Positions 9,054 through 54,721 of a stretch of DNA of 64,000 nt are shown here, in pieces. This DNA is from a virus (taxonomy: Duplodnaviria > Caudoviricetes), in IMG/VR virus record IMGVR_UViG_3300020037_008176, positions 1 through 64,000 of that record; one strand, written 5' to 3'. The position numbers were made by a program, and so were the translations under genes. The number at the start of each line of letters is the position of its first letter. Position 1 is the first letter of the stretch. The notes under the pieces were generated by a model, which was not told where the DNA came from, did no database searches, and saw only the letters and a list, made by a program, of their open reading frames with translations.

Positions 9054-9656
9054 ATGAGACCATTACTTATAGAAACAACCCCATTTAACATCTCTCCAAA
9101 AATGTTAAATGAATCTCGTGATAGAGTATCTGGCAATCCAATAGTTGAAGGTATTTTAGCTACTTGTGAAATTAAAAATGGTAATGGGAGATATTATTCT
9201 AAAGAATTATGGGAAAGAGAAATAGATAAATACTTAAAATTAGTTAATGAAAATAGAGCATTAGGAGAACTTGACCATCCAGATTCACAAGTAATTAATT
9301 TAAAAAACGTATCTCATAATATCAAAAAACTTTGGTGGGATGGTGATAATGTAATTGGAGCGATAGAAATATTACCAACTCCATCAGGAAATATACTAAA
9401 ATCATTAATTGAAAACAATATTAAAGTAGGTGTTTCATCTAGAGGAATGGGGAGTTTAAAACAAGTAGGAGAAATATTAGAAGTACAAGATGATTTTGAA
9501 TTATTATGTTGGGATTTTGTTTCAACACCTTCAAATCCAGGCTCATATATGGCTCCAATACATGAAGGACTAAATCCAACAATAAATCCATATGAAAAAA
9601 TAAATAATATAGTAACAGAAATATTATGTGCTAATGGATCTTGTCCAATAATGTAA
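9054..9656 (+). CDS. Prohead core protease (T4 gp21-like)
   Basis: KNGNGRYY, ALGELDHP, VSH, GVSSRGMGS, WDFVSTPS motifs. Confidence 0.96.
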   Translation: MRPLLIETTPFNISPKMLNESRDRVSGNPIVEGILATCEIKNGNGRYYSKELWEREIDKYLKLVNENRALGELDHPDSQVINLKNVSHNIKKLWWDGDNVIGAIEILPTPSGNILKSLIENNIKVGVSSRGMGSLKQVGEILEVQDDFELLCWDFVSTPSNPGSYMAPIHEGLNPTINPYEKINNIVTEILCANGSCPIM

Positions 9657-9716: not shown

Positions 9717-9751
9717 ACCAACTTTTCGACTTTAAATATTTATAATAAAAA

Positions 9752-11662: not shown

Positions 11663-13324
11663 ATGAATTCAATTCAATCATTATTGGAATCAGCTAATCC
11701 ATGGAAATCACTTCAAAGTGATGCTTCTAAACTAGCTACCAAATGGTCTAAAACAGGTCTTTTGGAAGGATTTGGTTCAGATACTGAGCGTAACAATATG
11801 GCTCTTATTCTTGAAAACCAAGCAAAACAATTAGTAGTAGAAACTAGTCAAACTGGTGCTGGTTCATCAGCAGGTTCATTTACAGTAGGTCAATCTGAAA
11901 ATTGGGCTGGAATTGCATTACCTTTAGTACGTAAAGTATTTGGTCAAATTGCAGCTAAAGAATTTATCTCAGTTCAACCAATGAACTTACCTTCAGGTCT
12001 TGTGTTTTTCTTAGATTTCCAATATGGAACTAATGTTAACCCATTCTCTTCAGGTAATTCTTTATATGGTGATCGTAGTGCAAATGGTCGTTTCCCATTC
12101 CAAACAACTGATACAAAAGGTGGTTTATATGGTGCAGGACGTTTTGCATATTCTACTAACCAAACATCATCAACAGTTAGTGCTACAGTTGCAACAGCTT
12201 CTTGGGCTAGTGTGATGTATGATTCAGCTTTATCAGCTTCTGCTGCTAGAAATGAAATTAAATCATTCACAGTTTCAACAGGTAGTATTCCTAACTTTGA
12301 TATCGAAGGTATCCGTGCATTCGTATTAACTTCTGGTTCTGCTGCTACAGTAGCTAAATCATTACCTGCATTTACATCATTTGATGGTGCGGCAAGTATT
12401 ATTTTCTACTTCACAGCTTCAACTGCTGAAACTAATGGAACAGGAACTTCTGCAGGAAGTACACTTTATTACAACAAAGCTACTGCTGATAACAACCGTG
12501 GTGATTTTGAAGATACATCAGCTCCTTCATTCTCAGTACCGAATGCTCAAAGTGCAAGCACAATTGTAATTCCAGAAATCAACATCAAGATGCAATCTCA
12601 AGCTATCACTGCTAAAACTAAAAAATTAAAAGCAGTATGGACTCCTGAATTTGCTCAAGATTTAAATGCTTACCAAAACATTGATGCTGAAGCGGAATTA
12701 ACTAACATCATGAGTGAATACATTTCAATGGAAATTGATTTGGAAATCTTAGATATGTTAATTGAAGATGCTGATGCAGCAACTGAATATTGGTCAGTAG
12801 TTAACAATACTACTTTAAATGCAGGTGGTACAGATTTCACAGCAAGTTTAGGTTACTACAACACTCAAGGTGGTTGGTTCCAAACACTTGGTACTAAAAT
12901 GCAAAAAGTAAGTAACAAGATTCACCAATTAACTTTAAGAGGTGGTGCTAATTTCTTAGTATGTTCTCCAACAGTAGCAACAGTTTTAGAATCAATCCCA
13001 GGATTTGCTTCTAACTCTAATGGTGATGCTGCTAACATGGAATATGCAATGGGTGTTCAAAAAGTAGGTCAAATCAACAACCGTTACACAGTTTATAAGA
13101 ACCCATATATGACTGAAAACGTAATCTTGATGGGATTCAGAGGTAAACAATTCCTTGAATCAGGTGCTGTTTTTGCTCCATATATTCCATTGATCATGAC
13201 ACCACTTGTGTACGATCCAACAACTTTCACTCCACGTAAAGGTTTAATGACTCGTTACGCTAAGAAAATGTTAAGACCAGAATTTTATGGTAAGATTTAT
13301 GTTAGTGGTTTAACAACTCTATAA
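11663..13324 (+). CDS. Major capsid protein (T4 gp23-like)
   Basis: ILENQ, LPLVRKVF, VQPMNLPSGLVFFL, KTKKLKAVWTPEFAQDL, APYIPL, P-x-KGLMTRY; strong codon bias. Confidence 0.97.
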   Translation: MNSIQSLLESANPWKSLQSDASKLATKWSKTGLLEGFGSDTERNNMALILENQAKQLVVETSQTGAGSSAGSFTVGQSENWAGIALPLVRKVFGQIAAKEFISVQPMNLPSGLVFFLDFQYGTNVNPFSSGNSLYGDRSANGRFPFQTTDTKGGLYGAGRFAYSTNQTSSTVSATVATASWASVMYDSALSASAARNEIKSFTVSTGSIPNFDIEGIRAFVLTSGSAATVAKSLPAFTSFDGAASIIFYFTASTAETNGTGTSAGSTLYYNKATADNNRGDFEDTSAPSFSVPNAQSASTIVIPEINIKMQSQAITAKTKKLKAVWTPEFAQDLNAYQNIDAEAELTNIMSEYISMEIDLEILDMLIEDADAATEYWSVVNNTTLNAGGTDFTASLGYYNTQGGWFQTLGTKMQKVSNKIHQLTLRGGANFLVCSPTVATVLESIPGFASNSNGDAANMEYAMGVQKVGQINNRYTVYKNPYMTENVILMGFRGKQFLESGAVFAPYIPLIMTPLVYDPTTFTPRKGLMTRYAKKMLRPEFYGKIYVSGLTTL

Positions 13325-13353
13325 TAAATTAACATAATAGTGTTAAAAGATAA

Positions 13354-13381
13354 GGCCGAGCTCAGCTCGGCTTTTCTTTTT
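13354..13381 (+). terminator. Intrinsic terminator after capsid gene
   Basis: GCCGAGC-tca-GCTCGGC followed by ttttcttttt. Confidence 0.9.
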
Positions 13382-13403
13382 CTTATATATTTTCAAAAAT
13401 CCC

Positions 13404-13459: not shown

Positions 13460-14374
13460 ATGAAAGAAACACCATCTCAACTTAACATACCTAGTTATGT
13501 AATGAATTTCCCATTCACTCTATCTGCTGCTAACCCAAATAATGTATGGATGGAAGAATTAAAACCAGAAGAGTTAGAAATTAATAAACCTAAAGCATAT
13601 AAACAATTTATGGATTTATATACTTTTATGGCTGGACAAGGATTAGTTTATATTTTACCTAGTAAAGGTGATTTTCAAGATCAAGTTTATGTTGCCAATT
13701 TAGGTTTACATTTACCTCATATTAAAGATCGTAATGTAATGTTATTATCTAATTATACATCTGAACCAAGACGCGGTGAAGAATGGGTTGGAAAAGAATT
13801 TTATGATATGATGGGATATGAAACATTTATTTGCCCATATAAATGGGAAGGAGAAGCAGATCTTAAATATTTAAAAGATAACATTTATATTGGAGGATAT
13901 GGTCAACGCTCAACTCTAGAAGCATATGAATGGATGGAGAAAAATTTTGATATGAAAATTATCAAATTAGAAATGGTTGAACCATATTTATATCATTTAG
14001 ATTGTTCTATATTTCCTGTAACAAATGATAAAACAATGGTATGTACTTCTTTATATAATGAAAATGAATTAAAAGAACTAAAAAAATATACTAAAATTAT
14101 AGATATAAATGAAGATGATGCTTTTGGAGGAATCACCAATTCAGTAAGAATGGGTAACATGATTTTATGTTCATCAAATATATCTGAATTATCAAAAGGG
14201 GAAGAATTATATGAATTGGAAAAACATAAAATTGACACTTTAGAAAAGATATGTGGAGATGAAGGTATGGAACCAATCATATTCAACTTATCAGAATTTA
14301 TGAAATCTGGAGCTCTTTTGTCTTGCTGTGTACAACACTTAAATCGTGTTGATATAAACAAAAAACTTATCTAA
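13460..14374 (+). CDS. Amidinotransferase / arginine dihydrolase-like guanidino-modifying (pentein) enzyme
   Basis: NNVWM, DQVYVAN, RRGE, WEGEAD, YHLDC, SEFMKSGALLSCC motifs with catalytic His/Cys retained. Confidence 0.85.
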   Translation: MKETPSQLNIPSYVMNFPFTLSAANPNNVWMEELKPEELEINKPKAYKQFMDLYTFMAGQGLVYILPSKGDFQDQVYVANLGLHLPHIKDRNVMLLSNYTSEPRRGEEWVGKEFYDMMGYETFICPYKWEGEADLKYLKDNIYIGGYGQRSTLEAYEWMEKNFDMKIIKLEMVEPYLYHLDCSIFPVTNDKTMVCTSLYNENELKELKKYTKIIDINEDDAFGGITNSVRMGNMILCSSNISELSKGEELYELEKHKIDTLEKICGDEGMEPIIFNLSEFMKSGALLSCCVQHLNRVDINKKLI

Positions 14375-14422
14375 TTTTTAATTTATCTTACATATTTATA
14401 ACCGTACAGTTAAATATGAAGA

Positions 14423-15148
14423 ATGAAAACAAAAATTTATTTAGTAACTAATATTGATAACAATCCATTTAAAGTTTACATAGGAAAAACTAAAAATTGT
14501 AGAAAAAATAATCATGAGTTAACTTATGGAAAACAAATTAATTATGATTATATAGATGAAGTTGATAGTTTAGATTATAAAGATTATGGACCTATAGAAT
14601 GTTTTTGGATAGAACAATTTAAACAATGGGGATTTGAAGTAATTAATAATAATGAAGGAGGAGGTGGTCCTTCAAAATGGAGTGATGAGTTATTAAATAG
14701 TGAAGAGAATAGATTACGAAAAGAAAAAATAAGTAATAATAAAGAAAGAGCTAAAAAAATTAGTAGAGCTACTAAAGGAGTTCCATTAACTGAAGAACGT
14801 AAAGCTAAATTAAGAGGACCTAGACCTCATTTAGTAGGTATAAAGAAAAAACCATTAAGTGAAAAAACTAAACAAAAGTTATCTAAGTCATTAAAAGGAA
14901 GACCATCTCCAAGAAAAGGAACTGAAGTTGGAGATAAACAAAAACAAGGTATAGTTGAAGCTAATAGTAAACCAATTCTTCAATATGATTTAGAAGATAA
15001 TTTTATTAAAGAATTTAAATCAAAAGCTGAAGCTAGTAGAGTATTAAATATAAAATTACATTATATTAATAATTGTTTAAAAGAAAAAATAGATAATATA
15101 AATGAATTCAAATTTAAATATAAAACAAATGAAAAAAGTATTAATTAA
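14423..15148 (+). CDS. GIY-YIG-like homing endonuclease with NUMOD3/NUMOD1 repeats
   Basis: KIYLV...VYIGKT, E-x-FWI, N; LSEKTKQKLSKSLKG; KPILQYDLEDNFIKEFKSKAEASR. Confidence 0.85.
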   Translation: MKTKIYLVTNIDNNPFKVYIGKTKNCRKNNHELTYGKQINYDYIDEVDSLDYKDYGPIECFWIEQFKQWGFEVINNNEGGGGPSKWSDELLNSEENRLRKEKISNNKERAKKISRATKGVPLTEERKAKLRGPRPHLVGIKKKPLSEKTKQKLSKSLKGRPSPRKGTEVGDKQKQGIVEANSKPILQYDLEDNFIKEFKSKAEASRVLNIKLHYINNCLKEKIDNINEFKFKYKTNEKSIN

Positions 15149-15488
15149 ACTAAACCAAATTAGCAAAAATGAGAGAATTTACAAACCTGAAATTCTTGAA
15201 TCATTTTTAAATAAAGAATATTTTGGAGAAATAAACCATCCTGATAATTCTGTAGTAAATGTAAAAAAAATTTCTCACAAGATAAATAATTTAGAAATTA
15301 AAGATAATGAATTATTAGGAGAAGTTGAAATATTAAATACCCCTGAGGGTAATAAATTAAAAGAGATTGGAATTGAAAATGTAGTATTTCGCCCTAGAGG
15401 ATTTGGAAACATCAATGAAAATAAAGAAGTTGAAAATTACGAATTAATAGCTTTTGATGCTATCCTAAAATATTCAGATCCTTTTTAA
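15129..15488 (+). CDS. Degenerate paralogue of the prohead protease
   Basis: KNERIY, FGEINHP, ISH, EILNTPEG, FRPRGFG, LIAFD align with gp21 motifs; likely start MKKVLIK at 15129. Confidence 0.8.
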   Translation: MKKVLIKLNQISKNERIYKPEILESFLNKEYFGEINHPDNSVVNVKKISHKINNLEIKDNELLGEVEILNTPEGNKLKEIGIENVVFRPRGFGNINENKEVENYELIAFDAILKYSDPF

Positions 15489-15489
15489 T

Positions 15490-16206
15490 ATGAGTAAACC
15501 ACTAGAACAATGGCTTGATGAAGATGTTGCTAAATGCGACAAAATGTCTATTAATAAATTATCACATGAATATTTCTTTAGAGACCCAGCTCGCCCAAAT
15601 TATATAGACAACGAACATTTTTATTCACCAGCAGATGGGGTAATTTTATATCAAAAATTTGTTCAACCAACTGAGAAGATTGTTGAAATTAAAGGTATAA
15701 ATTATACTTTACAAGATGTAATGGGGGATAAAGAATATAATAAACCATCTTTAGTTATAGGTATATTTATGTCATTTTATGATGTACATATTAACAGGAT
15801 TCCTTATGGTGGTGTATTAAAATATAAAAAATTAGAACCAATTGAGTCTACTAATAGACCAATGTTATCAATTGAAAAAGACATTTTAAATGCGGCTATT
15901 AATCCTGATAATATGGATTATGTAAAATACAATGAACGCATGTTAAACGATGTTTATGCGACTTCAATCGATTATAAATACCATATAATACAACTTGGAG
16001 ATGAAGATGTAGATGTTATTGTTCCATTTACAATTAATCAAAATAATTTATTTACTCAAAATCAAAGATTTAGTCTAATAAGATGGGGAAGCCAATGTGA
16101 ATTAGTTTTACCTTTAGATGATAGATTTGAATTTGATTTATGTCAAAAAGATACTTATCATGTTGAAGCTGGAGTTGATCCTTTAGTAAAGATTAAATTT
16201 AAATAA
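15490..16206 (+). CDS. Phosphatidylserine-decarboxylase-fold pyruvoyl enzyme, no membrane anchor
   Basis: FFRDP-x-R, SPADG, IFMSFYDVHINRIP, IRWGSQ (G|S autocleavage site). Confidence 0.85.
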   Translation: MSKPLEQWLDEDVAKCDKMSINKLSHEYFFRDPARPNYIDNEHFYSPADGVILYQKFVQPTEKIVEIKGINYTLQDVMGDKEYNKPSLVIGIFMSFYDVHINRIPYGGVLKYKKLEPIESTNRPMLSIEKDILNAAINPDNMDYVKYNERMLNDVYATSIDYKYHIIQLGDEDVDVIVPFTINQNNLFTQNQRFSLIRWGSQCELVLPLDDRFEFDLCQKDTYHVEAGVDPLVKIKFK

Positions 16207-16234: not shown

Positions 16235-16918
16235 ATGTCTCAAAATAATAATGAAGATGTTTTCAAAGAAAAAAGAAAACCAAAAGGAGAAATTAATTTT
16301 CATATGTCTCTTAACGAAGAACAAAAAGTTGCAAAACAAATAATTTTAGACAATCCTGTTACATTATTAAAAGGAATGGCAGGTTCAGGAAAAACATTAT
16401 TAGCATGTCAAATAGCTTTAGATTTAGTATTTAAAAGAGAAATGGATAAAATAGTAATTACTCGTCCAACTGTATCTAAAGAAGAAATTGGTTTTTTACC
16501 TGGTGATTTAAAAGAAAAAATGGATCCATGGTTAGCCCCTATATATGCTAACTTATATTTACTATATAATAAAGAAAAAATAGATAAAATGGTTCAAGAA
16601 AATCAAATTGAAATTGTACCATTTGCATTTATGAGAGGAAGAACGTTTCCTAATAGTTTTATTATAGTTGATGAATGTCAAAATATTACACATACCCAAA
16701 CTGAAATGATGTTAGGTCGTTTAGGTAGAGGAGGTAAAATGGTATTTTGTGGAGATTTAGCTCAAGTAGATTTAAAAAGCAAAAAAGATTCAGGTATTGG
16801 ATTCTTCCCTCGTTTAGAAGAAAGAATTAAAGGAGTAAAAATAGTTAATTTAAAGAAAAATCATAGACATGAAATTGTAGAGGATATATTAAAAACATAT
16901 GAAGAATTTCGAGATTAA
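16235..16918 (+). CDS. phoH: PhoH family ATPase
   Basis: GMAGSGKT, TRP, IGFLPGDLKEKMDPW, MRGRTF, IVDECQN, GDLAQ-D, RH. Confidence 0.96.
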   Translation: MSQNNNEDVFKEKRKPKGEINFHMSLNEEQKVAKQIILDNPVTLLKGMAGSGKTLLACQIALDLVFKREMDKIVITRPTVSKEEIGFLPGDLKEKMDPWLAPIYANLYLLYNKEKIDKMVQENQIEIVPFAFMRGRTFPNSFIIVDECQNITHTQTEMMLGRLGRGGKMVFCGDLAQVDLKSKKDSGIGFFPRLEERIKGVKIVNLKKNHRHEIVEDILKTYEEFRD

Positions 16919-16966
16919 TCATTGGTTTAATCGTACATTATTAATTCTGCAAAATTAGTAATGTTG

Positions 16967-16997
16967 AAAGTTATCCTAACCACGGATAACTTTTTTT
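16967..16997 (+). terminator. Intrinsic terminator after phoH
   Basis: AAAGTTATCC-taaccac-GGATAACTTT followed by T-run. Confidence 0.88.
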
Positions 16998-17030
16998 CTC
17001 TCTTATAATATTTATAACAAAATATATTTT

Positions 17031-20735: not shown

Positions 20736-20784
20736 ATTTATTATCTTTACCCTCCAATTCAATATTTATAATAAAACATAAATA

Positions 20785-46851: not shown

Positions 46852-47109
46852 ATGGAAAAAAGTTTAATAGTAGATAAATTTGATAAAAATCATAAATTTA
46901 TTAAAACTAGAACAATCCCCAATGGTCATGATTGTTGGGGAAACTATGAATATTATGATGAATATTATGTTTCCATTAAAGAAGGAAATTCATTCAAAAA
47001 TGAACATGTTTTTGAAAAAATGTTTATAATTCATAATAATAGAGAAGTAATAGCAACAGCTTTTGATTTTAATCTAGATAGAATATTAAAAGAATTAAAC
47101 GAGTTATGA
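46852..47109 (+). CDS. Hypothetical protein
   Basis: First ORF after promoter at 46816-46849. Confidence 0.55.
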   Translation: MEKSLIVDKFDKNHKFIKTRTIPNGHDCWGNYEYYDEYYVSIKEGNSFKNEHVFEKMFIIHNNREVIATAFDFNLDRILKELNEL

Positions 47110-47891
47110 TTAAAATTTCACACGAAGTACCATTAGTTTTATTAAAAAGAAGTAGAGAATTTAACGATTATGATTATTGCCTCCCTCATTTGATGGATCA
47201 ATATGAAGAATATCAAGATTTCTTTTTAGAATCTAGAGATAAAGGTCGCCACGTAATGATGGATAATTCATTACACGAATTAGGAGTTCCTTATCATGAA
47301 GAAAGATTATTTTATTGGTTAGATGAATTAAAACCTGCCGAATTTTTTATCCCTGATTATTGGGAAGAAAAAAACAGATCTATTGTATCAGCTAAAAAAT
47401 GGATACAATATCAATATTTATATCCTAATACTACTTTTATAGCAGTAGTTCAAGGAAAATCATTCCAAGATGCTGCTGAATGTTATATAGCATATAAGGA
47501 TTTTGGCTATCAAAAAATAGCTTTTTCATATGGAGCTTCTTATTATAATGATGTAAGTGCTCATCCTAATAAAGCTCTTGGAAAAGCCTTAGGAAGAATC
47601 CAAACAATCTCTAATTTAACATATGCTAATATAATTGATAAGAATGATAGAATACACCTTTTAGGTTGTTCAGTACCTCAAGAATTTGGATGGTATAAAG
47701 ATCTTCCATATATTGAATCAATAGATACCTCAAATCCAGTAATGGCAGGTATTGAAGGATTAGAATATTCAACAAGTGGTTTATATACAAAACCTACAGT
47801 AAACATGAATACTGTTTTTGAAAATAAAAGAGTAAATGTTGACTTGATTAAATACAATGTTAAAATGTTTAAACAAATAAATAATTTATAA
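47106..47891 (+). CDS. dpdA: TGT-fold guanine transglycosylase (DpdA-like)
   Basis: MMDNS, IPD, AVVQG, IHLLG, SIDTS motifs; heads the Que gene cluster. Confidence 0.75.
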   Translation: MIKISHEVPLVLLKRSREFNDYDYCLPHLMDQYEEYQDFFLESRDKGRHVMMDNSLHELGVPYHEERLFYWLDELKPAEFFIPDYWEEKNRSIVSAKKWIQYQYLYPNTTFIAVVQGKSFQDAAECYIAYKDFGYQKIAFSYGASYYNDVSAHPNKALGKALGRIQTISNLTYANIIDKNDRIHLLGCSVPQEFGWYKDLPYIESIDTSNPVMAGIEGLEYSTSGLYTKPTVNMNTVFENKRVNVDLIKYNVKMFKQINNL

Positions 47892-47892
47892 T

Positions 47893-48090
47893 ATGGAAAA
47901 CGAAAACTTTATTTCACTGTATGACTTTCTAGGAAGAGCTGCAGGTGGAGAATTAGGAAAAGAAGTATTTGCAAAAGCAAAAGAACAAAAACAACAATTT
48001 AAATCCAGAGATGTATCTAATAAAAAATACACTGGAAAAATCATATTATATAGAAGAGAATTTTTAAATTCATATTTTAATGGAAAATAA
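47893..48090 (+). CDS. Small hypothetical protein
   Basis: SLYDFLGRAAG-ELG-EV; between dpdA and queC. Confidence 0.6.
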   Translation: MENENFISLYDFLGRAAGGELGKEVFAKAKEQKQQFKSRDVSNKKYTGKIILYRREFLNSYFNGK

Positions 48091-49021
48091 AAAATATGCC
48101 GTAATATCATTAAGTGGAGGTATGGATAGTTCTACTTTATTACTTCGTTTATTAAGTGAAGGTTATGAAGTAACTGCTTTATCATTTGATTATGGTCAAA
48201 AACACAAAGTTGAATTAGAAAGAGCAACTGAATTAGTATATTTTATAAATAATAGACAGGCTGTAGTTTCAGATAAAAATGGAATTGGAGTAAATTATTA
48301 TTTTATTAAACACCAAATCATTAAATTGGATGGTTTGTCAAATTTACTAGTGAGTGGATTAGTAGATAATAATTCTATGGAAATGAAAACAGGACATTAC
48401 GCCCATGAAAATGCCCTTACAACTGTTGTTCCTAATCGAAACGCAATATTTTCAGCTATTACATATGCTGTTGCTTTATCTGTAGTGAAAAGAACAGGAA
48501 GATCATGTAATATAGCTTTAGGAACCCACATGGGTGATTTTGATAATAAAAAGCAAAGTGGGATTTACCCTGATTGTTCTGAAGAATTTAAACAAGCGAT
48601 TGAACATGCTTTTAAAATAGGAAATTGGGATTCTGATAAAGTAGATTATTACGCTCCATATAATATAACTGATAAAACAGGAGTATTAAAAGACGGAATT
48701 GAATGTTGTGAAAAATTAGGTTTAGATTATAAAGAAATTTATAAACGAACTAATACTAGTTATGCTCCTATTAGAGTAATCCTCCCAAGTTTAAAATCCC
48801 CAGATCCTAATGAAGAAATAGAATCTGGAGAAAGAGAAATATGGTACTCAGACTATAAATCAGGTTCAAGTATTGAACGTATAGAATCATTTATTAAGCT
48901 AGGATTAGAAGATTCAGTTCAATATGCTGAAGAAGATGGTACTTTAGTATCTTGGGAATTTGTTAAAGAATATGTTGAAAAAATTTGTGAGGAATGGGGG
49001 AAAAGTAAAGGAGACCATTGA
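48080..49021 (+). CDS. queC: 7-cyano-7-deazaguanine synthase
   Basis: SGGMDS PP-loop, FDYGQKH, TVVPNRN, YPDC. Confidence 0.95.
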   Translation: MENKKYAVISLSGGMDSSTLLLRLLSEGYEVTALSFDYGQKHKVELERATELVYFINNRQAVVSDKNGIGVNYYFIKHQIIKLDGLSNLLVSGLVDNNSMEMKTGHYAHENALTTVVPNRNAIFSAITYAVALSVVKRTGRSCNIALGTHMGDFDNKKQSGIYPDCSEEFKQAIEHAFKIGNWDSDKVDYYAPYNITDKTGVLKDGIECCEKLGLDYKEIYKRTNTSYAPIRVILPSLKSPDPNEEIESGEREIWYSDYKSGSSIERIESFIKLGLEDSVQYAEEDGTLVSWEFVKEYVEKICEEWGKSKGDH

Positions 49022-49061
49022 TTTTAATAAATTGTCCCCATATTTATAATAAAATATAATT

Positions 49062-49508
49062 ATGGAAAATCAAAAATGTTCAATTTGTAAAAATGAATTT
49101 CCTGCTACCTTAGAATATTTTGGTAAACACGGACGTAGAGGATTAGATACTTATTGTAAGGATTGTAGACATAAAAAAACAAAACAATATTACTATGACA
49201 ATAAGAAAAAAATGAAATCTCAATCTATAGCTTGGAAAAAATCCCAACGTCAAAAAATTAATGAGTATAAAGATTCTTTAAGTTGTTTAAAATGTAAAGA
49301 AAATAAAAATTGGCTTTTGGATTTTCATCATATTGATCCTTCTAAAAAAGATTTTCAAATAAGTCAAGGTGAAGCAAAAGGTTGGGAAAAAATAAAACAA
49401 GAAATAAAAAAATGTGTGGTTTTATGTTCAAATTGTCATAGAGATTTTCACTATTTAGAAAAATTAAATAATATAACAATCCAAGAATATTTGGATAACC
49501 AAATTTAA
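49062..49508 (+). CDS. HNH endonuclease
   Basis: CSIC...CKDC; CLKC...LDFHH...KCVVLCSNCHRDFH. Confidence 0.9.
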   Translation: MENQKCSICKNEFPATLEYFGKHGRRGLDTYCKDCRHKKTKQYYYDNKKKMKSQSIAWKKSQRQKINEYKDSLSCLKCKENKNWLLDFHHIDPSKKDFQISQGEAKGWEKIKQEIKKCVVLCSNCHRDFHYLEKLNNITIQEYLDNQI

Positions 49509-49541
49509 AAATATATTATTAACTCATAAAGATTAAAAATC

Positions 49542-49853
49542 ATGATTAACATTAATTGGATATTTGATAGTACTTGGGGTAATGGATTAAACCACGATTG
49601 GGAAGCCCTAAAAAAAGAAGGTACAGTAACTGAAACTACCGAAGAAAAAAATGGATTTAAAACCATTATAAAAACTTTTGTTTCATTTGATGGGGAGACA
49701 AAAATTACTTCATCCGAATCAATTTCTATAGTTGATGAAACTAAGAGTAAAATAAGTGAAATAAATAAACAAATTGAAACGGCTGTTAGAGATGAAAATT
49801 ATGAATTAGCTGCTCAATTGAAAAAAGAAAAAGAAACATTATTAAAAAAATAA
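49542..49853 (+). CDS. UVR (UvrB/C) domain protein
   Basis: C-terminal IETAVRDENYELAAQLK. Confidence 0.75.
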   Translation: MININWIFDSTWGNGLNHDWEALKKEGTVTETTEEKNGFKTIIKTFVSFDGETKITSSESISIVDETKSKISEINKQIETAVRDENYELAAQLKKEKETLLKK

Positions 49854-49855
49854 AT

Positions 49856-50104
49856 ATGAAACAAGTATTATACTTCTCAGCAAATTGGTGTTCTGCATGC
49901 CAATCAACAACCCCAAGTATTGACCAACTAAAAAAATCAGGTAGAGCTCAAGTAGCTAAAGTAGATACTGATTATGATATATCATTGGTAGAACAATATA
50001 GTGTAAAAAGTGTTCCTACTACCATTATTTTAGAAAATGGTAAAGAAATTAATAGACACACTGGAGCATTATCATTAGAACAATTAAATAATCTTATAAA
50101 ATAA
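49856..50104 (+). CDS. Thioredoxin
   Basis: FSANWCSAC, SVPT, G-E. Confidence 0.92.
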   Translation: MKQVLYFSANWCSACQSTTPSIDQLKKSGRAQVAKVDTDYDISLVEQYSVKSVPTTIILENGKEINRHTGALSLEQLNNLIK

Positions 50105-50586
50105 TGGCTTACAGATATCTCTCAGCTAAAAATTTTGATAATTTCTCAGTAGCATTAAGACAACACAAAGCTCAACACTCTCATTGTCAATTGTTACATG
50201 GATATGCTTTTGAAATAAAAGTATGGTTTGCTTCTAACGAAGAAGAAATTGATAAACAATTAGACGATATGAATTGGATTGTGGATTATGGTTCATTTAA
50301 AAAACCACCACAAGGAAATGGATTAAGAGAATGGTTAGACCAACAATTTGATCATACAACTCTTATTGAAAAAGATGACCCATGTTTAGATATATTTCAA
50401 CAATTAGAACAAATGGGAATTTGTAAATTAATTGTAATGGATAAAATGGGAGCTGAATCAGTTGCCAAATTAGTTTTTGAAAAATTTAATGAAAGATTAT
50501 CTAAAACTGATGCTGGTCGTTGTAAAGTGGTTAAAGTAGAAGTATTTGAAAATAAAAATAACAGTTCAATTTACGAAGAAATATGA
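50104..50586 (+). CDS. queD: 6-carboxy-5,6,7,8-tetrahydropterin synthase
   Basis: HCQLLHGY, VDYG, FDH, AE, V-E. Confidence 0.9.
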   Translation: MAYRYLSAKNFDNFSVALRQHKAQHSHCQLLHGYAFEIKVWFASNEEEIDKQLDDMNWIVDYGSFKKPPQGNGLREWLDQQFDHTTLIEKDDPCLDIFQQLEQMGICKLIVMDKMGAESVAKLVFEKFNERLSKTDAGRCKVVKVEVFENKNNSSIYEEI

Positions 50587-50789
50587 GTAAAATAAAAGAA
50601 ATGGAATCTAAATTTAATTTTCGATTTAATGAAAATAATAAATTTCATATTTCATTGTTTACGTTTTATAAAAAAACAGGATTTCTAACAGAAAAACAAA
50701 TTAATAGAATCAAACATCCTTTAGTAGTAGATACTAGTCGAGGTTTTAGTTCTGATTTAGACAGAGAATATCAAACAGCTAATTTTTAA
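50583..50789 (+). CDS. Small hypothetical protein
   Basis: F-ISL...G-LTEKQI pattern; overlapping start/stop. Confidence 0.55.
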   Translation: MSKIKEMESKFNFRFNENNKFHISLFTFYKKTGFLTEKQINRIKHPLVVDTSRGFSSDLDREYQTANF

Positions 50790-50842
50790 TCGATTAATTG
50801 AACAAAAATTAAAATCCATAATATGTATAATAAAATACAATT

Positions 50843-51532
50843 ATGAAAGTAAAACATTATGTTTATAAAATTGTTAATTTAAAAAACAATAAGATTTATA
50901 TTGGAGTTAGGACTCACCCCAATCCTGAATTAGATAATTATATGGGAAGCGGAACTTGTATACAAAATGTAATAGAAATTGAAGGTATAGAAAATTTTAA
51001 AAAAGAAATATTAAAATATTTCAATACAAGAGAAGAAGCCGAAAATTATGAATCTTCTTTATTAACAGAGGAATTTTGTAACAGCCCTAAAACCTATAAT
51101 ATTCAACAAACTAGTAGATTTAACGATAAAATGCATGGTTTTAGAAAAGATTTATGGTATGATTATTATAACGAAATTAGAAATAAATATATTAATGGAG
51201 AAACATTACCCAATCTTGGAAAACAATATAAATGTGATAAAGGAACAATCAGAATTATATGTTCAGATATAAAAAGAACTAATTCTGAATCACAAAGAAT
51301 AAGATTTAATAAATGTATAACATCCGGGGCAAGAGATACTGAATTTGATAAACTTCATTTAAAAAAATTATTGGAGTTATATAATGTAGAAAAGTGGAGT
51401 GTAAATCGAATTGCCACATATTTTAAGAAAAGTTGTTCTTTTATAGATAGAAGATTAAAAGAACAAAACATAATAAAAAGAGCTAGAAAAGAAAATAACG
51501 AAAAACCATTTAAAAACAGAAAACATGGCTAA
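50843..51532 (+). CDS. Seg-like GIY-YIG homing endonuclease
   Basis: YVYKIVN-KNNKIYIG, YMGSG, NFKKEIL, E, YN; C-terminal HTH repeats. Confidence 0.9.
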   Translation: MKVKHYVYKIVNLKNNKIYIGVRTHPNPELDNYMGSGTCIQNVIEIEGIENFKKEILKYFNTREEAENYESSLLTEEFCNSPKTYNIQQTSRFNDKMHGFRKDLWYDYYNEIRNKYINGETLPNLGKQYKCDKGTIRIICSDIKRTNSESQRIRFNKCITSGARDTEFDKLHLKKLLELYNVEKWSVNRIATYFKKSCSFIDRRLKEQNIIKRARKENNEKPFKNRKHG

Positions 51533-52421
51533 ACTTAATTCAAATACTTTATTAATATCATCAGATTTCTTTTCTTGTCAAGGCGAAGGAAAATCAACAG
51601 GTATCCCTTCATATTTTGTTCGTTTAGGGTTGTGTAATTTAAATTGTGGAATGTCACGTTTATTTACTAATAAACTTTTAAAAGAAAAATCATTAGAAGA
51701 TGGAGAAATATTTAAAGGTGATTTAGAAACAGAAGGTAAAGCAACTTGGACTTGTGATAGTACATCTCAATGGTTATGGAGAGGAGTAGATCAAGATTTT
51801 GATTATCTAATTAATCAATGGAAAGAACAAGATATATATGAAGATATTAAAAATGGTATTATTCATATAATTTGGACAGGTGGAGAACCTACTTTACCAA
51901 AACATCAAGAAGCAATTTTTGAATTTAGTAAATATTGGGCACACCAAAATGGAGGAATTTTAGAAAATTTAAATATGGATACTACAGATGTTTTACATCA
52001 TTTTATGGAATCTGTAAAGCCAAAAAATGCTTTTTATGAAATTGAAACCAATGGAACCCAATATATAAATAAATATTTATTTAGAATTCTTGATCAAATA
52101 AATTGCTCCCCAAAACTTTCTAACTCAGGAATGAGTACCAAACAACGTATAAATTCTGAAGCCATTAAACGTATAATGGAACATCCAAATTACCAATTCA
52201 AATTTGTTATATCAAATGAAGATGATATTAAAGAAATGTTTAAAGATTTTATCGAACCATTTAATATACCACTTAAAAATGTTGTTTGTATGCCTGGAAT
52301 GGATTCACAAACACAATTTCATGAAAGAACACAATGGTGTTTAGAAATGGCTAAAAAATATAAATTTAGAGGAATGACAAGATTACACATCTCAGCTTGG
52401 GATAAAACTTTAAACGTTTAA
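51525..52421 (+). CDS. queE: 7-carboxy-7-deazaguanine synthase (radical SAM)
   Basis: QGEG...G-PS-FVRL-LCNL-C, CDS, TGGEP, IETNG, SPKL, KFV, RLH. Confidence 0.93.
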   Translation: MAKLNSNTLLISSDFFSCQGEGKSTGIPSYFVRLGLCNLNCGMSRLFTNKLLKEKSLEDGEIFKGDLETEGKATWTCDSTSQWLWRGVDQDFDYLINQWKEQDIYEDIKNGIIHIIWTGGEPTLPKHQEAIFEFSKYWAHQNGGILENLNMDTTDVLHHFMESVKPKNAFYEIETNGTQYINKYLFRILDQINCSPKLSNSGMSTKQRINSEAIKRIMEHPNYQFKFVISNEDDIKEMFKDFIEPFNIPLKNVVCMPGMDSQTQFHERTQWCLEMAKKYKFRGMTRLHISAWDKTLNV

Positions 52422-52422
52422 C

Positions 52423-52563
52423 ATGCACGAATTATTTCACATAATAGGTCTTTGCCCAGAAAGTTTGTCTCATCCAAATTTTCTTAATATATTGATTTCA
52501 AATTATCAAGAAATTATAAATTTAATAAATAAAGGTTATGAAAAGTATAAAAATTTGGATTAA
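52423..52563 (+). CDS. 46-aa hypothetical protein (not in ORF track)
   Basis: MHELFHIIGLCPESLSHPNFLNILISNYQ...* fills the gap after queE. Confidence 0.5.
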   Translation: MHELFHIIGLCPESLSHPNFLNILISNYQEIINLINKGYEKYKNLD

Positions 52564-52948
52564 ATGGAAATTTTATAGATGGAAAGCTTATTTAAATAAA
52601 AAAGCTTCTAGTAAAAGAAATCTACAAGTCGATGAAAAATTAATAAAAAGTGTAGTGGTAAAAATCTCTTCAAATGAAAAGAATCTAATTTTAATCTCAC
52701 CACTTTCAAAAACAATTTATCTTCAAACATCTAATAAAGATTATACTATTGTATTAGAAGAACACAAAATAAAAATAACAAATCACCAATTATTTATTGA
52801 ATCTCAAATTGATGAATTTTTTAGTAGAGAATTATTTAATATAGTATATCACTATGTTGAAAAATTCCGTCTTCAATTGAATAAAGAAATATTCAATAAT
52901 GAAGTTGATGGATTAAATTATATGTTAAATCAATTAAATAAAAATTAA
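52538..52948 (+). CDS. Hypothetical protein
   Basis: ORF within the Que cluster. Confidence 0.6.
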   Translation: MKSIKIWIKWKFYRWKAYLNKKASSKRNLQVDEKLIKSVVVKISSNEKNLILISPLSKTIYLQTSNKDYTIVLEEHKIKITNHQLFIESQIDEFFSRELFNIVYHYVEKFRLQLNKEIFNNEVDGLNYMLNQLNKN

Positions 52949-52953
52949 ATTTT

Positions 52954-53583
52954 ATGTTAAAAAAAGCAAACGAAAACCAATTCCGCTCATCAGAAGAAAT
53001 TGAAAAAATGATAGAGGAAGCAACTAAACATTATGGAAGTTTTTTAAATTCACTAGGATGGGATTATCTAGCTGATAGACAAACAATCGATACTCCTAAA
53101 CGTGTAGCTAAGGCTTGGTTAAAAGATTTAGTATTAGGTTCAGTAACTAAAGAACCATCAATGACAGTATTTCCAAACGAAGAAAATTATGATGGAGTAG
53201 TTATTCAAACAGGTATTCCAGTAGTTAGTTTATGTGCTCACCACAATTTACCTTTTACAGGTTATGCTTCTGTAGCATATGTACCAGGTGAAAAAGTAGT
53301 AGGTTTAAGTAAATTAAATCGTGTTGTTGATTGGTTTGCTCGTAGACCACAAATGCAAGAGTCATTAACTCAACAAATTCATGAATTTTTATCTAAAAAA
53401 TTAGATTGCCCATCAGTAGCAGTTAGTATTGCTTCTAAACATATGTGTTGTTCAAATCGTGGGATTAAACATCCAACATCAACTATGACTACTAATAAAT
53501 TTAGTGGTGTGTTTATGGAACCAAATAACTTAATTCGTGAAGAATTTTTACAAGCAATAATGAAAAACGGAAAAGATTTTTAA
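52954..53583 (+). CDS. folE: GTP cyclohydrolase I
   Basis: TPKRVAK, SLCAHHNLPF, GLSKLNR, RRPQMQE, HMC-x-x-RG. Confidence 0.97.
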   Translation: MLKKANENQFRSSEEIEKMIEEATKHYGSFLNSLGWDYLADRQTIDTPKRVAKAWLKDLVLGSVTKEPSMTVFPNEENYDGVVIQTGIPVVSLCAHHNLPFTGYASVAYVPGEKVVGLSKLNRVVDWFARRPQMQESLTQQIHEFLSKKLDCPSVAVSIASKHMCCSNRGIKHPTSTMTTNKFSGVFMEPNNLIREEFLQAIMKNGKDF

Positions 53584-53587
53584 TCAA

Positions 53588-54064
53588 ATGATGGAATTAG
53601 TAACAACTTACATATGTAAAGTTTCTGACATTGGCGTTCATTCCAATATGTTTGGAGGAACTATTTTAGGATTAGTAGACCAAAGTTCAGGAGCTTATGC
53701 TTCTCAAATTTGTGATACACCTAAAATGGTTACCATCAAAATTGATGAATTGGTTTTTAAAAACCCCGTAAAAGAAGGAAACATTATTAAAATATATGCT
53801 ACTGTAAAAGAATTCGGAAATACATCCGTTACCATGTATACAGAAGTAAGAAAACACAATGTTTATACAGGTAAACAAGAAGTAGTATTACATACCAATA
53901 TCAAATTTGTAAGAATAGACGAAGAAGGACATCCAATTCCAATTTCGGAACGTGTTAAAAAGCGTTATGAAACAAGAATTGAAAAATATGGTAAAGGTCT
54001 TCTAGATTCTGAAGAAAGGAAATTGGAAAATTTTAATGATGTTATAGCCAAATCTAATATATAA
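53588..54064 (+). CDS. Hotdog-fold acyl-CoA thioesterase (YciA-like)
   Basis: NMFGG, VT...F-NPV-EG, GNTS, FVRIDEEG-P. Confidence 0.88.
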   Translation: MMELVTTYICKVSDIGVHSNMFGGTILGLVDQSSGAYASQICDTPKMVTIKIDELVFKNPVKEGNIIKIYATVKEFGNTSVTMYTEVRKHNVYTGKQEVVLHTNIKFVRIDEEGHPIPISERVKKRYETRIEKYGKGLLDSEERKLENFNDVIAKSNI

Positions 54065-54561
54065 TGAATCCTGCTGATTTAGTAACTCCATCACTAATAA
54101 ATTATTGTTCAAATATGAATACAATAGTAGTGTGTGGATTTACAAAAACAGGGAAAATTACATTAGCAAATAAATTAGCCAAAGAATTAAATAGAAAAAT
54201 ATTCTTATCAGATGATTATCAGTTTGTAGATCCTAATGAATCATTATATGCTTTTATGAAAGATATAATTCCATTTCATCAAAATAAAACTCCTATTATT
54301 GTAGAAGGAATATTATGTTTTAGATTATTGAGAAAAGGTATTCAAGAAAGTTTATTTTTTCCTGATTTAATATTAAAAACAAATTGTAATGAATCTACTA
54401 TTCGATATTTTTATAATAAAGATAGAGAAGAACACAAAATAGAAAGAGCCTTATCTTTTAATAAAGGATTAGATAAAATTTGGAATGAATATTTAGATTT
54501 ATTATCTAAAAATCCATGGATTAGAAAACCTCAATATGTTGAATTAAATACATCTTTATAA
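54064..54561 (+). CDS. P-loop nucleotide kinase-like protein
   Basis: IVVCGFTKTGKITLA, SDDY, IIVEG, PDLI. Confidence 0.7.
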   Translation: MNPADLVTPSLINYCSNMNTIVVCGFTKTGKITLANKLAKELNRKIFLSDDYQFVDPNESLYAFMKDIIPFHQNKTPIIVEGILCFRLLRKGIQESLFFPDLILKTNCNESTIRYFYNKDREEHKIERALSFNKGLDKIWNEYLDLLSKNPWIRKPQYVELNTSL

Positions 54562-54562
54562 A

Positions 54563-54721
54563 ATGAACCAAGACGAAATAATCAAATTACAACAAGAATT
54601 AATCGATTTGTATGAACAACAAATTATGGATTTAACCCTAATGTCTAAAATTGAATTAGGTGATGATGTAATTGAAGAAATTAACAGATTAAAAGAATTA
54701 ATACATGAACAGATTAATTAA
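54563..54721 (+). CDS. 52-aa coiled-coil protein (not in ORF track)
   Basis: MNQDEIIKLQQELIDLYEQQ...* fills the gap. Confidence 0.55.
   Translation: MNQDEIIKLQQELIDLYEQQIMDLTLMSKIELGDDVIEEINRLKELIHEQIN

What the first reader, a model, noticed from the sequence alone, without database searches (positions are those of the whole stretch)
13460..16206. Guanidino-modifying enzyme plus soluble PSD-fold decarboxylase beside the capsid gene: candidate new phage pathway
Seen: one transcription unit holds a pentein enzyme with intact motifs (DQVYVAN, RRGE, EGEAD, YHLD, SEF-K-G...C) and a PSD-fold pyruvoyl enzyme. The latter has a hydrophilic N-terminus where short-type PSDs carry membrane helices before FFRDP, and GSQ at the cleavage site. 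Known: these pentein motifs resemble the arginine dihydrolase domain of ArgZ/AgrE, and the PSD fold can act on soluble amino acids (PsiD). Inference, three options: (a) Arg to ornithine to putrescine, or Arg to agmatine onward, supplying polyamine for DNA packaging; (b) (phospho)serine to ethanolamine to a guanidinoethyl group for DNA or virion decoration; (c) ammonia/amidine supply converting preQ0 to archaeosine, since no QueF, ArcS or Gat domain is seen in the Que cluster.
Basis: partly seen in the sequence, partly recalled or inferred. Interest (0 to 1): 0.8.

Follow-up and report, generated by a model that had tools for sequence, protein, structure and literature searches.

The report
Phage arginine-to-putrescine enzyme pair
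Just after its capsid gene, this T4-like phage carries an arginine-dihydrolase-like enzyme and a soluble relative of the lipid enzyme phosphatidylserine decarboxylase; the two genes travel together through unrelated phages and most likely turn arginine into the polyamine putrescine by a route I found in no paper.

Summary
Window 13460-14374 encodes a 304-aa pentein. Window 15490-16206 encodes a 238-aa anchor-less PSD-fold proenzyme. Both lie in one terminator-bounded unit with PhoH.

The pentein model (pLDDT 96.9) matches the ArgZ/AgrE arginine dihydrolase domain (TM 0.8-0.9, profile E 1e-43). It keeps every ArgZ hallmark I could map: Cys264, His168, Glu118, Asn71, Arg90 and Arg139. The PSD-like protein keeps the Asp-His-Ser self-cleavage set.

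The pair is strictly linked. In 77 of 77 informative IMG/VR loci the pentein sits directly upstream. It recurs in at least five unrelated phage backbones, including Campylobacter Fletchervirus and Bacteroides DAC16-type phages. Elsewhere the pentein is fused to a SpeD-like decarboxylase or clustered with a PLP SpeA-like decarboxylase.

Option (c) is not supported, because complete pair-carrying genomes lack QueC. Nothing supports option (b).

This scan has already flagged the same pair on other phage DNA, and earlier follow-ups reached the same reading.

The parts
13352..13384 (+). Intrinsic terminator after the major capsid gene (gp23, 11663-13324); marks the upstream edge of the unit
   Evidence: 10-bp stem with 6 GC pairs plus a T run; sequence read
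13460..14374 (+). ArgZ-like pentein, predicted stand-alone arginine dihydrolase (304 aa; catalytic Cys289 at 14324-14326)
   Evidence: phmmer against PDB: ArgZ/AgrE at 1e-15; profile search 1e-43; AF2 pLDDT 96.9; Foldseek TM 0.80/0.89 to 6juz/6jv0/6lrg; conserved residues
14423..15148 (+). GIY-YIG/NUMOD homing endonuclease inserted between the two enzyme genes
   Evidence: NUMOD1 1.2e-10 and phrog_314 homing endonuclease; absent from this position in 73 of 77 related loci
15102..15488 (+). 128-aa gp21 (prohead protease)-like fragment ORF, part of the insertion
   Evidence: PF03420 4.6e-6 and phrog_207 1e-16; 34% identical to residues 44-162 of the phage's own gp21 at 9054-9656
15490..16206 (+). 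Anchor-less PSD-fold pyruvoyl proenzyme, predicted ornithine (basic amino acid) decarboxylase (238 aa; cleavage Ser201 at 16090-16092)
   Evidence: PF02666 6e-23; D49/H100/G200-S201 invariant; no hydrophobic segment; AF2 pLDDT 74 with E. coli PSD, PsiD and Ao-ADC1 as fold matches
16235..16918 (+). PhoH-like ATPase, a conserved downstream backbone gene in the same unit (not part of the pathway)
   Evidence: PF02562 1e-62; present in immuto without the pair
16966..17004 (+). Terminator-like hairpin closing the unit
   Evidence: 11-bp stem plus a T run

Best explanation
This is a self-contained, horizontally mobile two-enzyme module that makes putrescine from host L-arginine. Step 1: the pentein is a stand-alone ArgZ-type arginine dihydrolase that hydrolyses the guanidino group of free L-arginine to give L-ornithine, 2 NH3 and CO2. 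The Cys289 nucleophile, His179 and Glu130 are shown by alignment; the activity is inferred. Step 2: the PSD-fold protein cleaves itself at Gly200-Ser201 to form a pyruvoyl cofactor. The motifs are shown; cleavage is inferred. As a soluble enzyme it then decarboxylates ornithine to putrescine (inferred). The diamine raises the infected cell's polyamine pool for replication, translation and DNA packaging. The known hosts are Campylobacter and Bacteroides, and the relatedness of this phage to Flavobacterium phage immuto suggests a Flavobacterium-type host here. From my memory of the literature, the first two make putrescine through agmatine and N-carbamoylputrescine and lack an ornithine decarboxylase. 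If so, neither phage enzyme is useful alone, which would explain the strict pairing. In this window a homing endonuclease cassette has split the pair without breaking either gene.
For: Pentein identity. The best PDB sequence and fold matches are the ArgZ/AgrE dihydrolase domain: E 1e-15; profile E 1e-41 to 1e-43, against DDAH at 4e-9; TM 0.80/0.89, rmsd 2.2 A. The model is very confident (pLDDT 96.9). Every mapped ArgZ/AgrE residue is kept: N22, D65, N71, R90, E118, D122, R139, H168, D170 and C264 correspond to N28, D74, N80, R104, E130, D134, R150, H179, D181 and C289. The mutant chains 6juz (N71S) and 6jv1 (C264S) fix the register. R104, R150 and D74 correspond by spacing to the residues that bind the alpha-carboxylate and alpha-amino groups in DDAH (my recollection of the DDAH literature). 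This means the substrate is an amino acid, not agmatine, and it puts the pentein first. Pairing. The pentein is directly upstream of the PSD-like gene in 77 of 77 informative IMG/VR loci, with stop/start overlap in L005-L007. The pair is also adjacent in DAC16-type Bacteroides phages, in L033, in L123, in an Sf6-terminase/Mu-F type phage and in L128. It co-occurs unlinked in about 40 Fletchervirus genomes. The two genes are nearly the only ones shared by G000, DAC16 and F341, so no third partner is needed. Non-homologous decarboxylase partners. P0312 is a SpeD-like (PF02675 3.5e-8) and pentein fusion. A Verrucomicrobiales cluster holds a SpeA-like PLP decarboxylase next to two penteins. Precedents. 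A PSD-fold arginine decarboxylase, Ao-ADC1, is known (PMC12904898). Phage arginase, ODC and SpeD-fold ODC/ADC are known (PMC9992855). The PSD-like protein keeps the D-H-S set and has no membrane segment.
Against: No activity has been measured for either protein. Both score far below every curated NCBIfam equivalog cut-off: Arg_dihydro 77 bits against 450, PSD models at most 67 against at least 183. Identity to ArgZ is only 21-23%. The substrate of the PSD-fold enzyme is not constrained by any test here: the fold search ties E. coli PSD, PsiD and Ao-ADC1 (Z 8.6, 7.3, 7.0), and that model is only moderately confident (pLDDT 74). The bacterial partner decarboxylase looks most like SpeA, an arginine decarboxylase, which would fit the order Arg to agmatine equally well. 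No SpeD or SpeE genes for onward polyamine synthesis occur in the pair-carrying genomes. The SpeD-like domain of a second fusion, P0307, lacks the cleavage serine. The roles I assign to R104, R150 and D74 rest on memory of the DDAH literature, because the ArgZ/AgrE papers were not held.
Confidence: 0.55

Rival explanations
1. Reverse order. The PSD-fold enzyme is an arginine decarboxylase like Aspergillus Ao-ADC1, making agmatine. The pentein then hydrolyses agmatine to N-carbamoylputrescine or directly to putrescine.
For: A PSD-fold ADC exists. The PLP decarboxylase clustered with penteins in the Verrucomicrobiales MAG is most similar to SpeA. Characterised phage SpeD homologues include ADCs.
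Against: The pentein keeps D74, R104 and R150, the counterparts of the residues that hold the alpha-amino and alpha-carboxylate groups in ArgZ and DDAH; agmatine lacks the carboxylate. The gene order is always pentein first. As far as I recall, the hosts already convert agmatine to putrescine, so a pentein would be redundant.
Confidence: 0.15
2. Deiminase variant. The pentein stops at citrulline (a DDAH- or ADI-like single hydrolysis). The decarboxylase makes N-carbamoylputrescine from citrulline, and the host N-carbamoylputrescine amidohydrolase finishes the conversion to putrescine.
For: The top NCBIfam hit is a DDAH model, at 80 bits. DDAHs are the second-best fold matches. Campylobacter and Bacteroides have N-carbamoylputrescine amidohydrolase (from memory).
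Against: The family has the ArgZ-type Ala-Asn (N80, the residue mutated in the stalled N71S structure 6juz) where DDAH has Glu-Asp. The profile match to ArgZ is about 34 orders of magnitude better than the match to DDAH.
Confidence: 0.07
3. The pentein is an amidinotransferase, and together with the decarboxylase it builds a guanidino-amine for DNA or virion decoration or another special metabolite.
For: Fletchervirus records annotate the gene as an amidinotransferase. SxtG and HsvA amidinotransferases are weaker fold matches. The Verrucomicrobiales cluster, with a JmjC hydroxylase and an ABC exporter, looks like a natural-product cluster. The carriers have heavily modified DNA: dI in Fletchervirus, and a 7-deazaguanine pathway in this phage.
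Against: No Pfam amidinotransferase model matches even at E 0.1. No further modification genes are shared among the pair-carrying phages. The match to hydrolases (ArgZ, DDAH) is far stronger than the match to transferases (SxtG at 2e-3).
Confidence: 0.06
4. The pair serves 7-deazaguanine DNA modification, for example by supplying ammonia or an amidine to convert preQ0 to archaeosine.
For: This phage has DpdA-like, QueC, QueD, QueE and FolE genes but no QueF or formyltransferase. ArgZ-type chemistry releases ammonia, which QueC uses.
Against: G002 (100% complete), G001 (90% complete), DAC16 and F341 all carry the pair and have no QueC. Immuto has the full Que pathway and no pair.
Confidence: 0.02
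5. The PSD-like protein is a genuine phosphatidylserine decarboxylase that remodels host membrane lipid, as ocean AMG catalogues assume, and its link to the pentein is incidental.
For: Pfam membership of PF02666. The closest curated models are short-type PSD and archaetidylserine decarboxylase. A published AMG survey reads viral psd this way (PMC11360552).
Against: No membrane anchor or hydrophobic segment in six diverse members. Scores are far below all PSD equivalog cut-offs. The obligate, translationally coupled pairing with an arginine-type enzyme across unrelated phages is unexplained by a lipid role.
Confidence: 0.04

Closest known systems
ArgZ (Synechocystis Sll1336) and AgrE (Anabaena Alr4995) arginine dihydrolases, N-terminal domain (PDB 6JUY-6JV1, 6LRF-6LRH)
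   Same: Same pentein fold (TM 0.8-0.9). The same Cys-His-Glu catalytic set, the ArgZ-specific Asn (N71 to N80) and the paired arginines R90/R139. In both cases the enzyme is coupled to an ornithine-consuming partner.
   Different: Only 21-23% identity. Stand-alone 304-aa protein without the C-terminal LOR/SDH-type or ornithine cyclodeaminase domains. It carries an extra segment of about 25 residues at 240-265. It scores 77 bits against a cut-off of 450 for NF052232. It is phage-borne.
Short-type phosphatidylserine / archaetidylserine decarboxylases (PF02666; PRK05305, TIGR00164)
   Same: Same family by Pfam. Same FFR-x-P, PADG, x-x-H and G-S motifs for self-cleavage and pyruvoyl formation.
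   Different: No N-terminal membrane helices. GSQ in place of GST/GSS. Far below the equivalog cut-offs. Always paired with an arginine-type enzyme.
Soluble PSD-fold amino-acid decarboxylases: Aspergillus oryzae arginine decarboxylase Ao-ADC1 (PDB 9JER) and Psilocybe tryptophan decarboxylase PsiD (8X4Q)
   Same: They show that the PSD fold can decarboxylate free amino acids. Weak fold matches, Z 7.0 and 7.3.
   Different: No detectable sequence similarity at E up to 1. The fungal proteins are much larger. The substrate here is untested.
Virus-encoded putrescine routes: arginase plus PLP- or SpeD-fold pyruvoyl ODC/ADC (PMC9992855, PMC10407285)
   Same: Same proposed outcome, a phage-driven route from arginine or ornithine to putrescine. 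A SpeD-like domain is fused to a pentein homologue, P0312.
   Different: Both enzymes are non-homologous replacements. An ArgZ-type dihydrolase stands in for arginase, and the decarboxylase has the PSD fold instead of the SpeD or PLP folds. That survey does not mention Campylobacter, PSD, amidinotransferase or dihydrolase.

Membership tests
Pentein / guanidino-group-modifying enzyme superfamily | Five-fold beta-beta-alpha-beta propeller fold | tested here: met
   AF2 model pLDDT 96.9. Foldseek probability 1.00 to ArgZ, AgrE, DDAH, AstB, AGAT and ADI.
Pentein / guanidino-group-modifying enzyme superfamily | C-terminal Cys nucleophile with His and acidic residues | tested here: met
   C289, H179, E130, D181 and D74 align to ArgZ C264, H168, E118, D170 and D65. 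They are 83-100% conserved in the family.
ArgZ/AgrE arginine dihydrolase (NCBIfam NF052232, NF052231) | Score above the curated family cut-off | tested here: not met
   77 bits against a cut-off of 450; 73 against 1025.
ArgZ/AgrE arginine dihydrolase (NCBIfam NF052232, NF052231) | ArgZ-specific Asn71 (the N71S mutant traps an intermediate, PDB 6JUZ) and the arginine pair R90/R139 | tested here: met
   N80, R104 and R150.
ArgZ/AgrE arginine dihydrolase (NCBIfam NF052232, NF052231) | C-terminal ornithine-processing (LOR/SDH-like, cyclodeaminase) domains | tested here: not met
   The protein is 304 aa and ends with the pentein domain.
ArgZ/AgrE arginine dihydrolase (NCBIfam NF052232, NF052231) | Converts L-arginine to L-ornithine, 2 NH3 and CO2 | not testable with these tools
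   Needs an enzyme assay.
DDAH (dimethylarginine dimethylaminohydrolase) | Glu-Asp pair at the guanidine-binding position, and a score above the cut-off | tested here: not met
   Ala-Asn (A79-N80) at that position. NF045659 scores 80 bits against 300.
Amidinotransferase (Pfam PF02274 and relatives), as annotated in Fletchervirus genomes | Match to an amidinotransferase family model | tested here: not met
   No Pfam family at E up to 0.1. Only SxtG at 2e-3 over 60 residues in the PDB profile search.
Phosphatidylserine decarboxylase family (Pfam PF02666) | Score above the Pfam gathering cut-off | tested here: met
   81.9 bits against 22.
Phosphatidylserine decarboxylase family (Pfam PF02666) | Asp-His-Ser set and Gly-Ser cleavage site for pyruvoyl formation | tested here: met
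   D49 (PADG), H100 and G200-S201 are invariant in 12 sequences and kept in six diverse phage members. D49 and H100 align to the E. coli PSD PADG and H motifs.
Phosphatidylserine decarboxylase family (Pfam PF02666) | Self-cleavage into alpha and beta chains | not testable with these tools
   Needs protein expression.
Bona fide PSD / archaetidylserine decarboxylase (NCBIfam equivalogs) | Score above the equivalog cut-off | tested here: not met
   Best score 66.8 bits against 183; TIGR00164 57 against 230.
Bona fide PSD / archaetidylserine decarboxylase (NCBIfam equivalogs) | Membrane anchor or membrane-binding N-terminal helices | tested here: not met
   The highest KD(19) mean is 0.70-1.33 in six members, always in the internal strand.
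Soluble PSD-fold amino-acid decarboxylases (Ao-ADC1, PsiD) | Specific structural or sequence similarity beyond the shared fold | tested here: inconclusive
   VIA Z 7.0 and 7.3 against 8.6 for E. coli PSD. No sequence match.

The most novel reading that the evidence does not exclude
The pair does not simply top up putrescine. It may make a dedicated product: a different amine, or an amine that is then attached to DNA, to the virion or to a host target. That would mean the PSD-fold enzyme has a substrate not yet known for this fold. The fact that carriers are enriched among phages with fully replaced guanine (dI in Fletchervirus, 7-deazaguanine in this phage) would then not be coincidental.
Probability: 0.15. 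Interest if true: 0.8.

Novelty: new variant of a known kind. Interest (0 to 1): 0.62.

Why it matters
Phage-encoded polyamine synthesis is known, but only with arginase, PLP decarboxylases and SpeD-fold decarboxylases. If this reading is right, it adds a stand-alone ArgZ-type dihydrolase and a fourth protein fold for ornithine decarboxylation. It would give a function to two genes present in well over a thousand 90%-identity protein clusters, most of those listed coming from metagenomes. It would also correct two face-value annotations: 'amidinotransferase' in Campylobacter Fletchervirus genomes, and 'psd = phosphatidylethanolamine synthesis' in ocean AMG surveys. The genes occur in cultured phages (NCTC 12673, F341, DAC16), so the idea can be tested directly at the bench.

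Tried and rejected
- ArgZ/AgrE structure papers were not held, so substrate-contact roles come from alignment plus memory of the DDAH literature.
- The search for related loci with the 53-sequence pentein alignment failed because it had no conserved stretch. The single genome-contig scan with P0330 found only P0330 itself.
- SpeD (PF02675) and spermidine synthase (PF01564) are absent from G000, G002, G004, DAC16 and F341. There is no extended polyamine operon.
- An IMPDH/GMP-reductase-like gene occurs only in DAC16. I rejected a general link to guanine replacement.
- Foldseek and VIA could not separate PSD, PsiD and Ao-ADC1 as the nearest structure.
- Xanthomonas phage phiXF1 has a distant DDAH-like gene (23% identity) with no recognisable decarboxylase beside it. 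This was uninformative.
- A sample of 401 Verrucomicrobiota genomes gave one adjacent pair, on a 121-kb contig of 28% GC that may be phage DNA. It also gave two ordinary high-GC PSD hits with no pentein nearby. I therefore could not confirm here the earlier notes' claim that the pair is common in bacteria.
- Literature searches found no paper on the pair.
Full report
**What is there**

The window is an all-plus-strand T4-like myophage of about 28% GC. It is an IMG/VR record of 102 kb, estimated 63% complete. Its nearest cultured relative is Flavobacterium phage immuto.

After the gp23 capsid gene (11663-13324) and a strong terminator (13352-13384) come five ORFs:
- a 304-aa ORF at 13460-14374;
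- a GIY-YIG/NUMOD homing endonuclease at 14423-15148;
- a 128-aa gp21-like fragment at 15102-15488;
- a 238-aa PF02666 protein at 15490-16206;
- PhoH at 16235-16918.

The next long-stem plus-strand terminator is at 16966.

**The pentein**

Pfam finds nothing at E 0.1. phmmer against the PDB finds only ArgZ (Sll1336) and AgrE (Alr4995), at 1e-15.

A library-wide HMMER search gave 993 cluster representatives, 163 of them below 1e-30. With 53 of these (31-65% identity), AlphaFold gave a model with pLDDT 96.9. The best structural matches are the ArgZ/AgrE dihydrolase domain (TM 0.80/0.89, rmsd 2.2 A). DDAH follows at about 0.69, then SxtG, HsvA, AstB and AGAT. The family profile hits ArgZ/AgrE at 1e-41 to 1e-43 and DDAH at 4e-9.

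The deposited mutant chains (N71S, C264S, C264A) fix the alignment register. The mapping from ArgZ/AgrE to the window protein is:

| ArgZ/AgrE | Window protein |
|---|---|
| N22 | N28 |
| D65 | D74 |
| N71 | N80 |
| R90 | R104 |
| E118 | E130 |
| D122 | D134 |
| R139 | R150 |
| H168 | H179 |
| D170 | D181 |
| C264 | C289 |

These residues are kept in at least 83% of the 53 representatives. They are also kept in the DAC16, F341, bacterial and fused homologues, with only isolated exceptions.

By spacing, D74, R104 and R150 are the counterparts of the DDAH residues that hold the alpha-amino and alpha-carboxylate groups (my recollection of the DDAH literature). The position that is Asp in DDAH is the ArgZ-type Asn here. 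So the protein is an ArgZ-like hydrolase acting on an amino acid of arginine length.

It is not a curated member of any equivalog family: 77 bits against 450 for Arg_dihydro, and 80 against 300 for a DDAH model. It lacks ArgZ's C-terminal domains.

**The PSD-like protein**

PF02666 matches at 6e-23. The nearest curated models are short-type PSD and archaetidylserine decarboxylase, but scores are at most 67 bits against cut-offs of at least 183.

D49 (PADG), H100 and G200-S201 (WGSQ) are invariant. The first two align to the corresponding E. coli PSD motifs.

Six diverse members have no hydrophobic segment. The model (pLDDT 74) matches E. coli PSD, PsiD and Ao-ADC1 about equally. The fold is therefore confirmed, but the substrate is not constrained.

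**Linkage**

In the phage record collection the pentein occurs in 47 records and the PSD-like gene in 45. These are the same roughly 40 Campylobacter Fletchervirus genomes and 6 Bacteroides DAC16-type genomes. The genes are adjacent in DAC16 and about 90 kb apart in F341.

Each family has more than 1,000 90%-identity clusters in the protein collection searched. An IMG/VR scan seeded with the PSD-like alignment returned 80 loci. In all 77 that have upstream sequence, the pentein lies directly upstream, in the order gp23, pentein, PSD, PhoH. In 73 the genes abut; 4 have inserts. In L005-L007 the stop and start codons overlap.

Distant pentein representatives (36-47% identity) again have a PSD-like neighbour in quite different phage backbones:
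- next to DnaG and a GT9-like gene;
- next to an RNR fragment;
- in an Sf6-terminase/Mu-F head module.

A blastp comparison shows the two genes are nearly the only ones shared by G000, DAC16 and F341. Immuto lacks both. The pair is therefore a self-contained mobile module.

**Independent pointers to basic amino-acid decarboxylation**

- P0312 is a fusion of a SpeD-like pyruvoyl decarboxylase domain (PF02675 3.5e-8, TIGR03330 4e-7, with the Ser-His of the cleavage motif kept) to a pentein. No PSD gene is on its 4.3-kb contig.
- A Verrucomicrobiales MAG has a SpeA-like PLP decarboxylase, a pentein, a JmjC protein, a second pentein and an ABC exporter in a row.
- Phage SpeD homologues are known ornithine or arginine decarboxylases, and phage arginase plus ODC routes are documented (PMC9992855, PMC10407285).
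- A PSD-fold arginine decarboxylase is known from Aspergillus (PMC12904898).

Three non-homologous decarboxylase types are thus found beside one pentein family. That argues the partner decarboxylates arginine or its product.

**Most likely mechanism**

Arginine is hydrolysed to ornithine by the dihydrolase. Ornithine is then decarboxylated to putrescine by the pyruvoyl enzyme.

The pentein-first order follows from two things: its retained amino-acid-binding residues, and the invariant gene order.

As far as I recall, Campylobacter and Bacteroides make putrescine through agmatine and lack an ornithine decarboxylase. If so, neither phage enzyme would be useful alone, which would explain the strict pairing.

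The fold, motifs and linkage are shown. Both activities and the physiological role are inferred. Confidence is about 0.55. The rivals are reverse order through agmatine (0.15), a citrulline route (0.07), an amidinotransferase-built special metabolite (0.06), a genuine lipid PSD (0.04) and a 7-deazaguanine link (0.02).

The window does hold DpdA-like, QueC, QueD, QueE and FolE genes plus a MazG-like gene. It has no QueF or formyltransferase.

However, QueC is absent from pair-carrying G002 (100% complete), G001 (90% complete), DAC16 and F341. It is present in immuto, which lacks the pair. The pair is therefore independent of 7-deazaguanine synthesis.

**Literature and earlier notes**

No paper I could search describes the pair. 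An ocean AMG survey reads viral psd as phosphatidylethanolamine synthesis. Fletchervirus records call the pentein an amidinotransferase.

This scan's own notebook shows the same pair flagged on many other phage windows, with earlier follow-ups reaching the arginine-to-putrescine reading. I consulted those notes only after forming my reading.

New here, as far as those summaries show:
- the SpeD-like fusion and the PLP-decarboxylase cluster;
- the QueC independence test;
- the inteins in pentein homologues;
- the endonuclease cassette that splits the pair in this window.

I could not confirm the earlier claim that the pair is common in bacteria.

Noticed in passing
window 14375-15489: The insertion that splits the pair consists of a GIY-YIG/NUMOD homing endonuclease plus a 128-aa ORF. 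The ORF is 34% identical to residues 44-162 of the phage's own gp21 prohead protease (9054-9656). Where gp21 reads SSRG, the fragment reads RPRG. Relative L008 has an endonuclease plus an unrelated 127-aa ORF at the same site. In other relatives the endonuclease sits between PSD and PhoH.
   Followed up: partly
proteins P0300, P0364, P0366, P0379, P0316 (pentein homologues): Several pentein homologues are interrupted by LAGLIDADG-type inteins. Along with the homing endonucleases, this marks the gene as a conserved target for selfish elements.
   Followed up: no
proteins P0312, P0307, P0267: Fusions of the pentein. P0312 has an N-terminal SpeD-like domain with its Ser-His kept. P0307 has a similar N-terminal domain in which the serine is replaced by glycine. 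P0267 has a C-terminal PF18823 'InPase' domain.
   Followed up: partly
window 47106-55379, and genomes G003, G004, G005: The 7-deazaguanine cluster (DpdA-like, QueC, QueD, QueE, FolE, 4HBT thioesterase-like, MazG-like) lacks the QueF and the PF00551 formyltransferase that immuto uses to make fdPreQ1. The 100%-complete relative G004 lacks both too. These phages probably carry a different deazaguanine from immuto.
   Followed up: partly
L002 12405-13887 (Bacteroides phage DAC16, 155283-156765): Two genes downstream of the pair, DAC16 encodes a dCTP-deaminase/dUTPase-like protein followed by an IMPDH/GMP-reductase-domain protein. Neither F341 nor G000 has the latter. This may be a hint of purine-pool manipulation in DAC16-type phages.
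   Followed up: partly
L036 442-6518 (Verrucomicrobiales MAG CAYUKP010000072.1): A cluster of a SpeA-like PLP decarboxylase, a pentein, a JmjC/Cupin_8 protein, a second pentein, an ABC exporter and a fatty-acyl-AMP-ligase fragment. It looks like a small biosynthetic cluster for a hydroxylated or guanidino amine.
   Followed up: partly
L128 (G257:C341:78500-98400): A 121-kb contig of 28% GC binned in a Verrucomicrobiota genome carries dUTPase, pentein and PSD-like genes in a row. Glycosyltransferases, sugar epimerases and a GAPDH gene lie nearby. It may be a mis-binned large phage.
   Followed up: partly
window, e.g. 14393-14400, 9737-9744, 17009-17016, 20763-20770: TATTTATA (the reverse complement of TATAAATA) recurs 15-35 nt upstream of many start codons. 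There are 44 matches on both strands against 28 expected. It is probably this phage's promoter element. No exact copy lies before the pentein gene.
   Followed up: no
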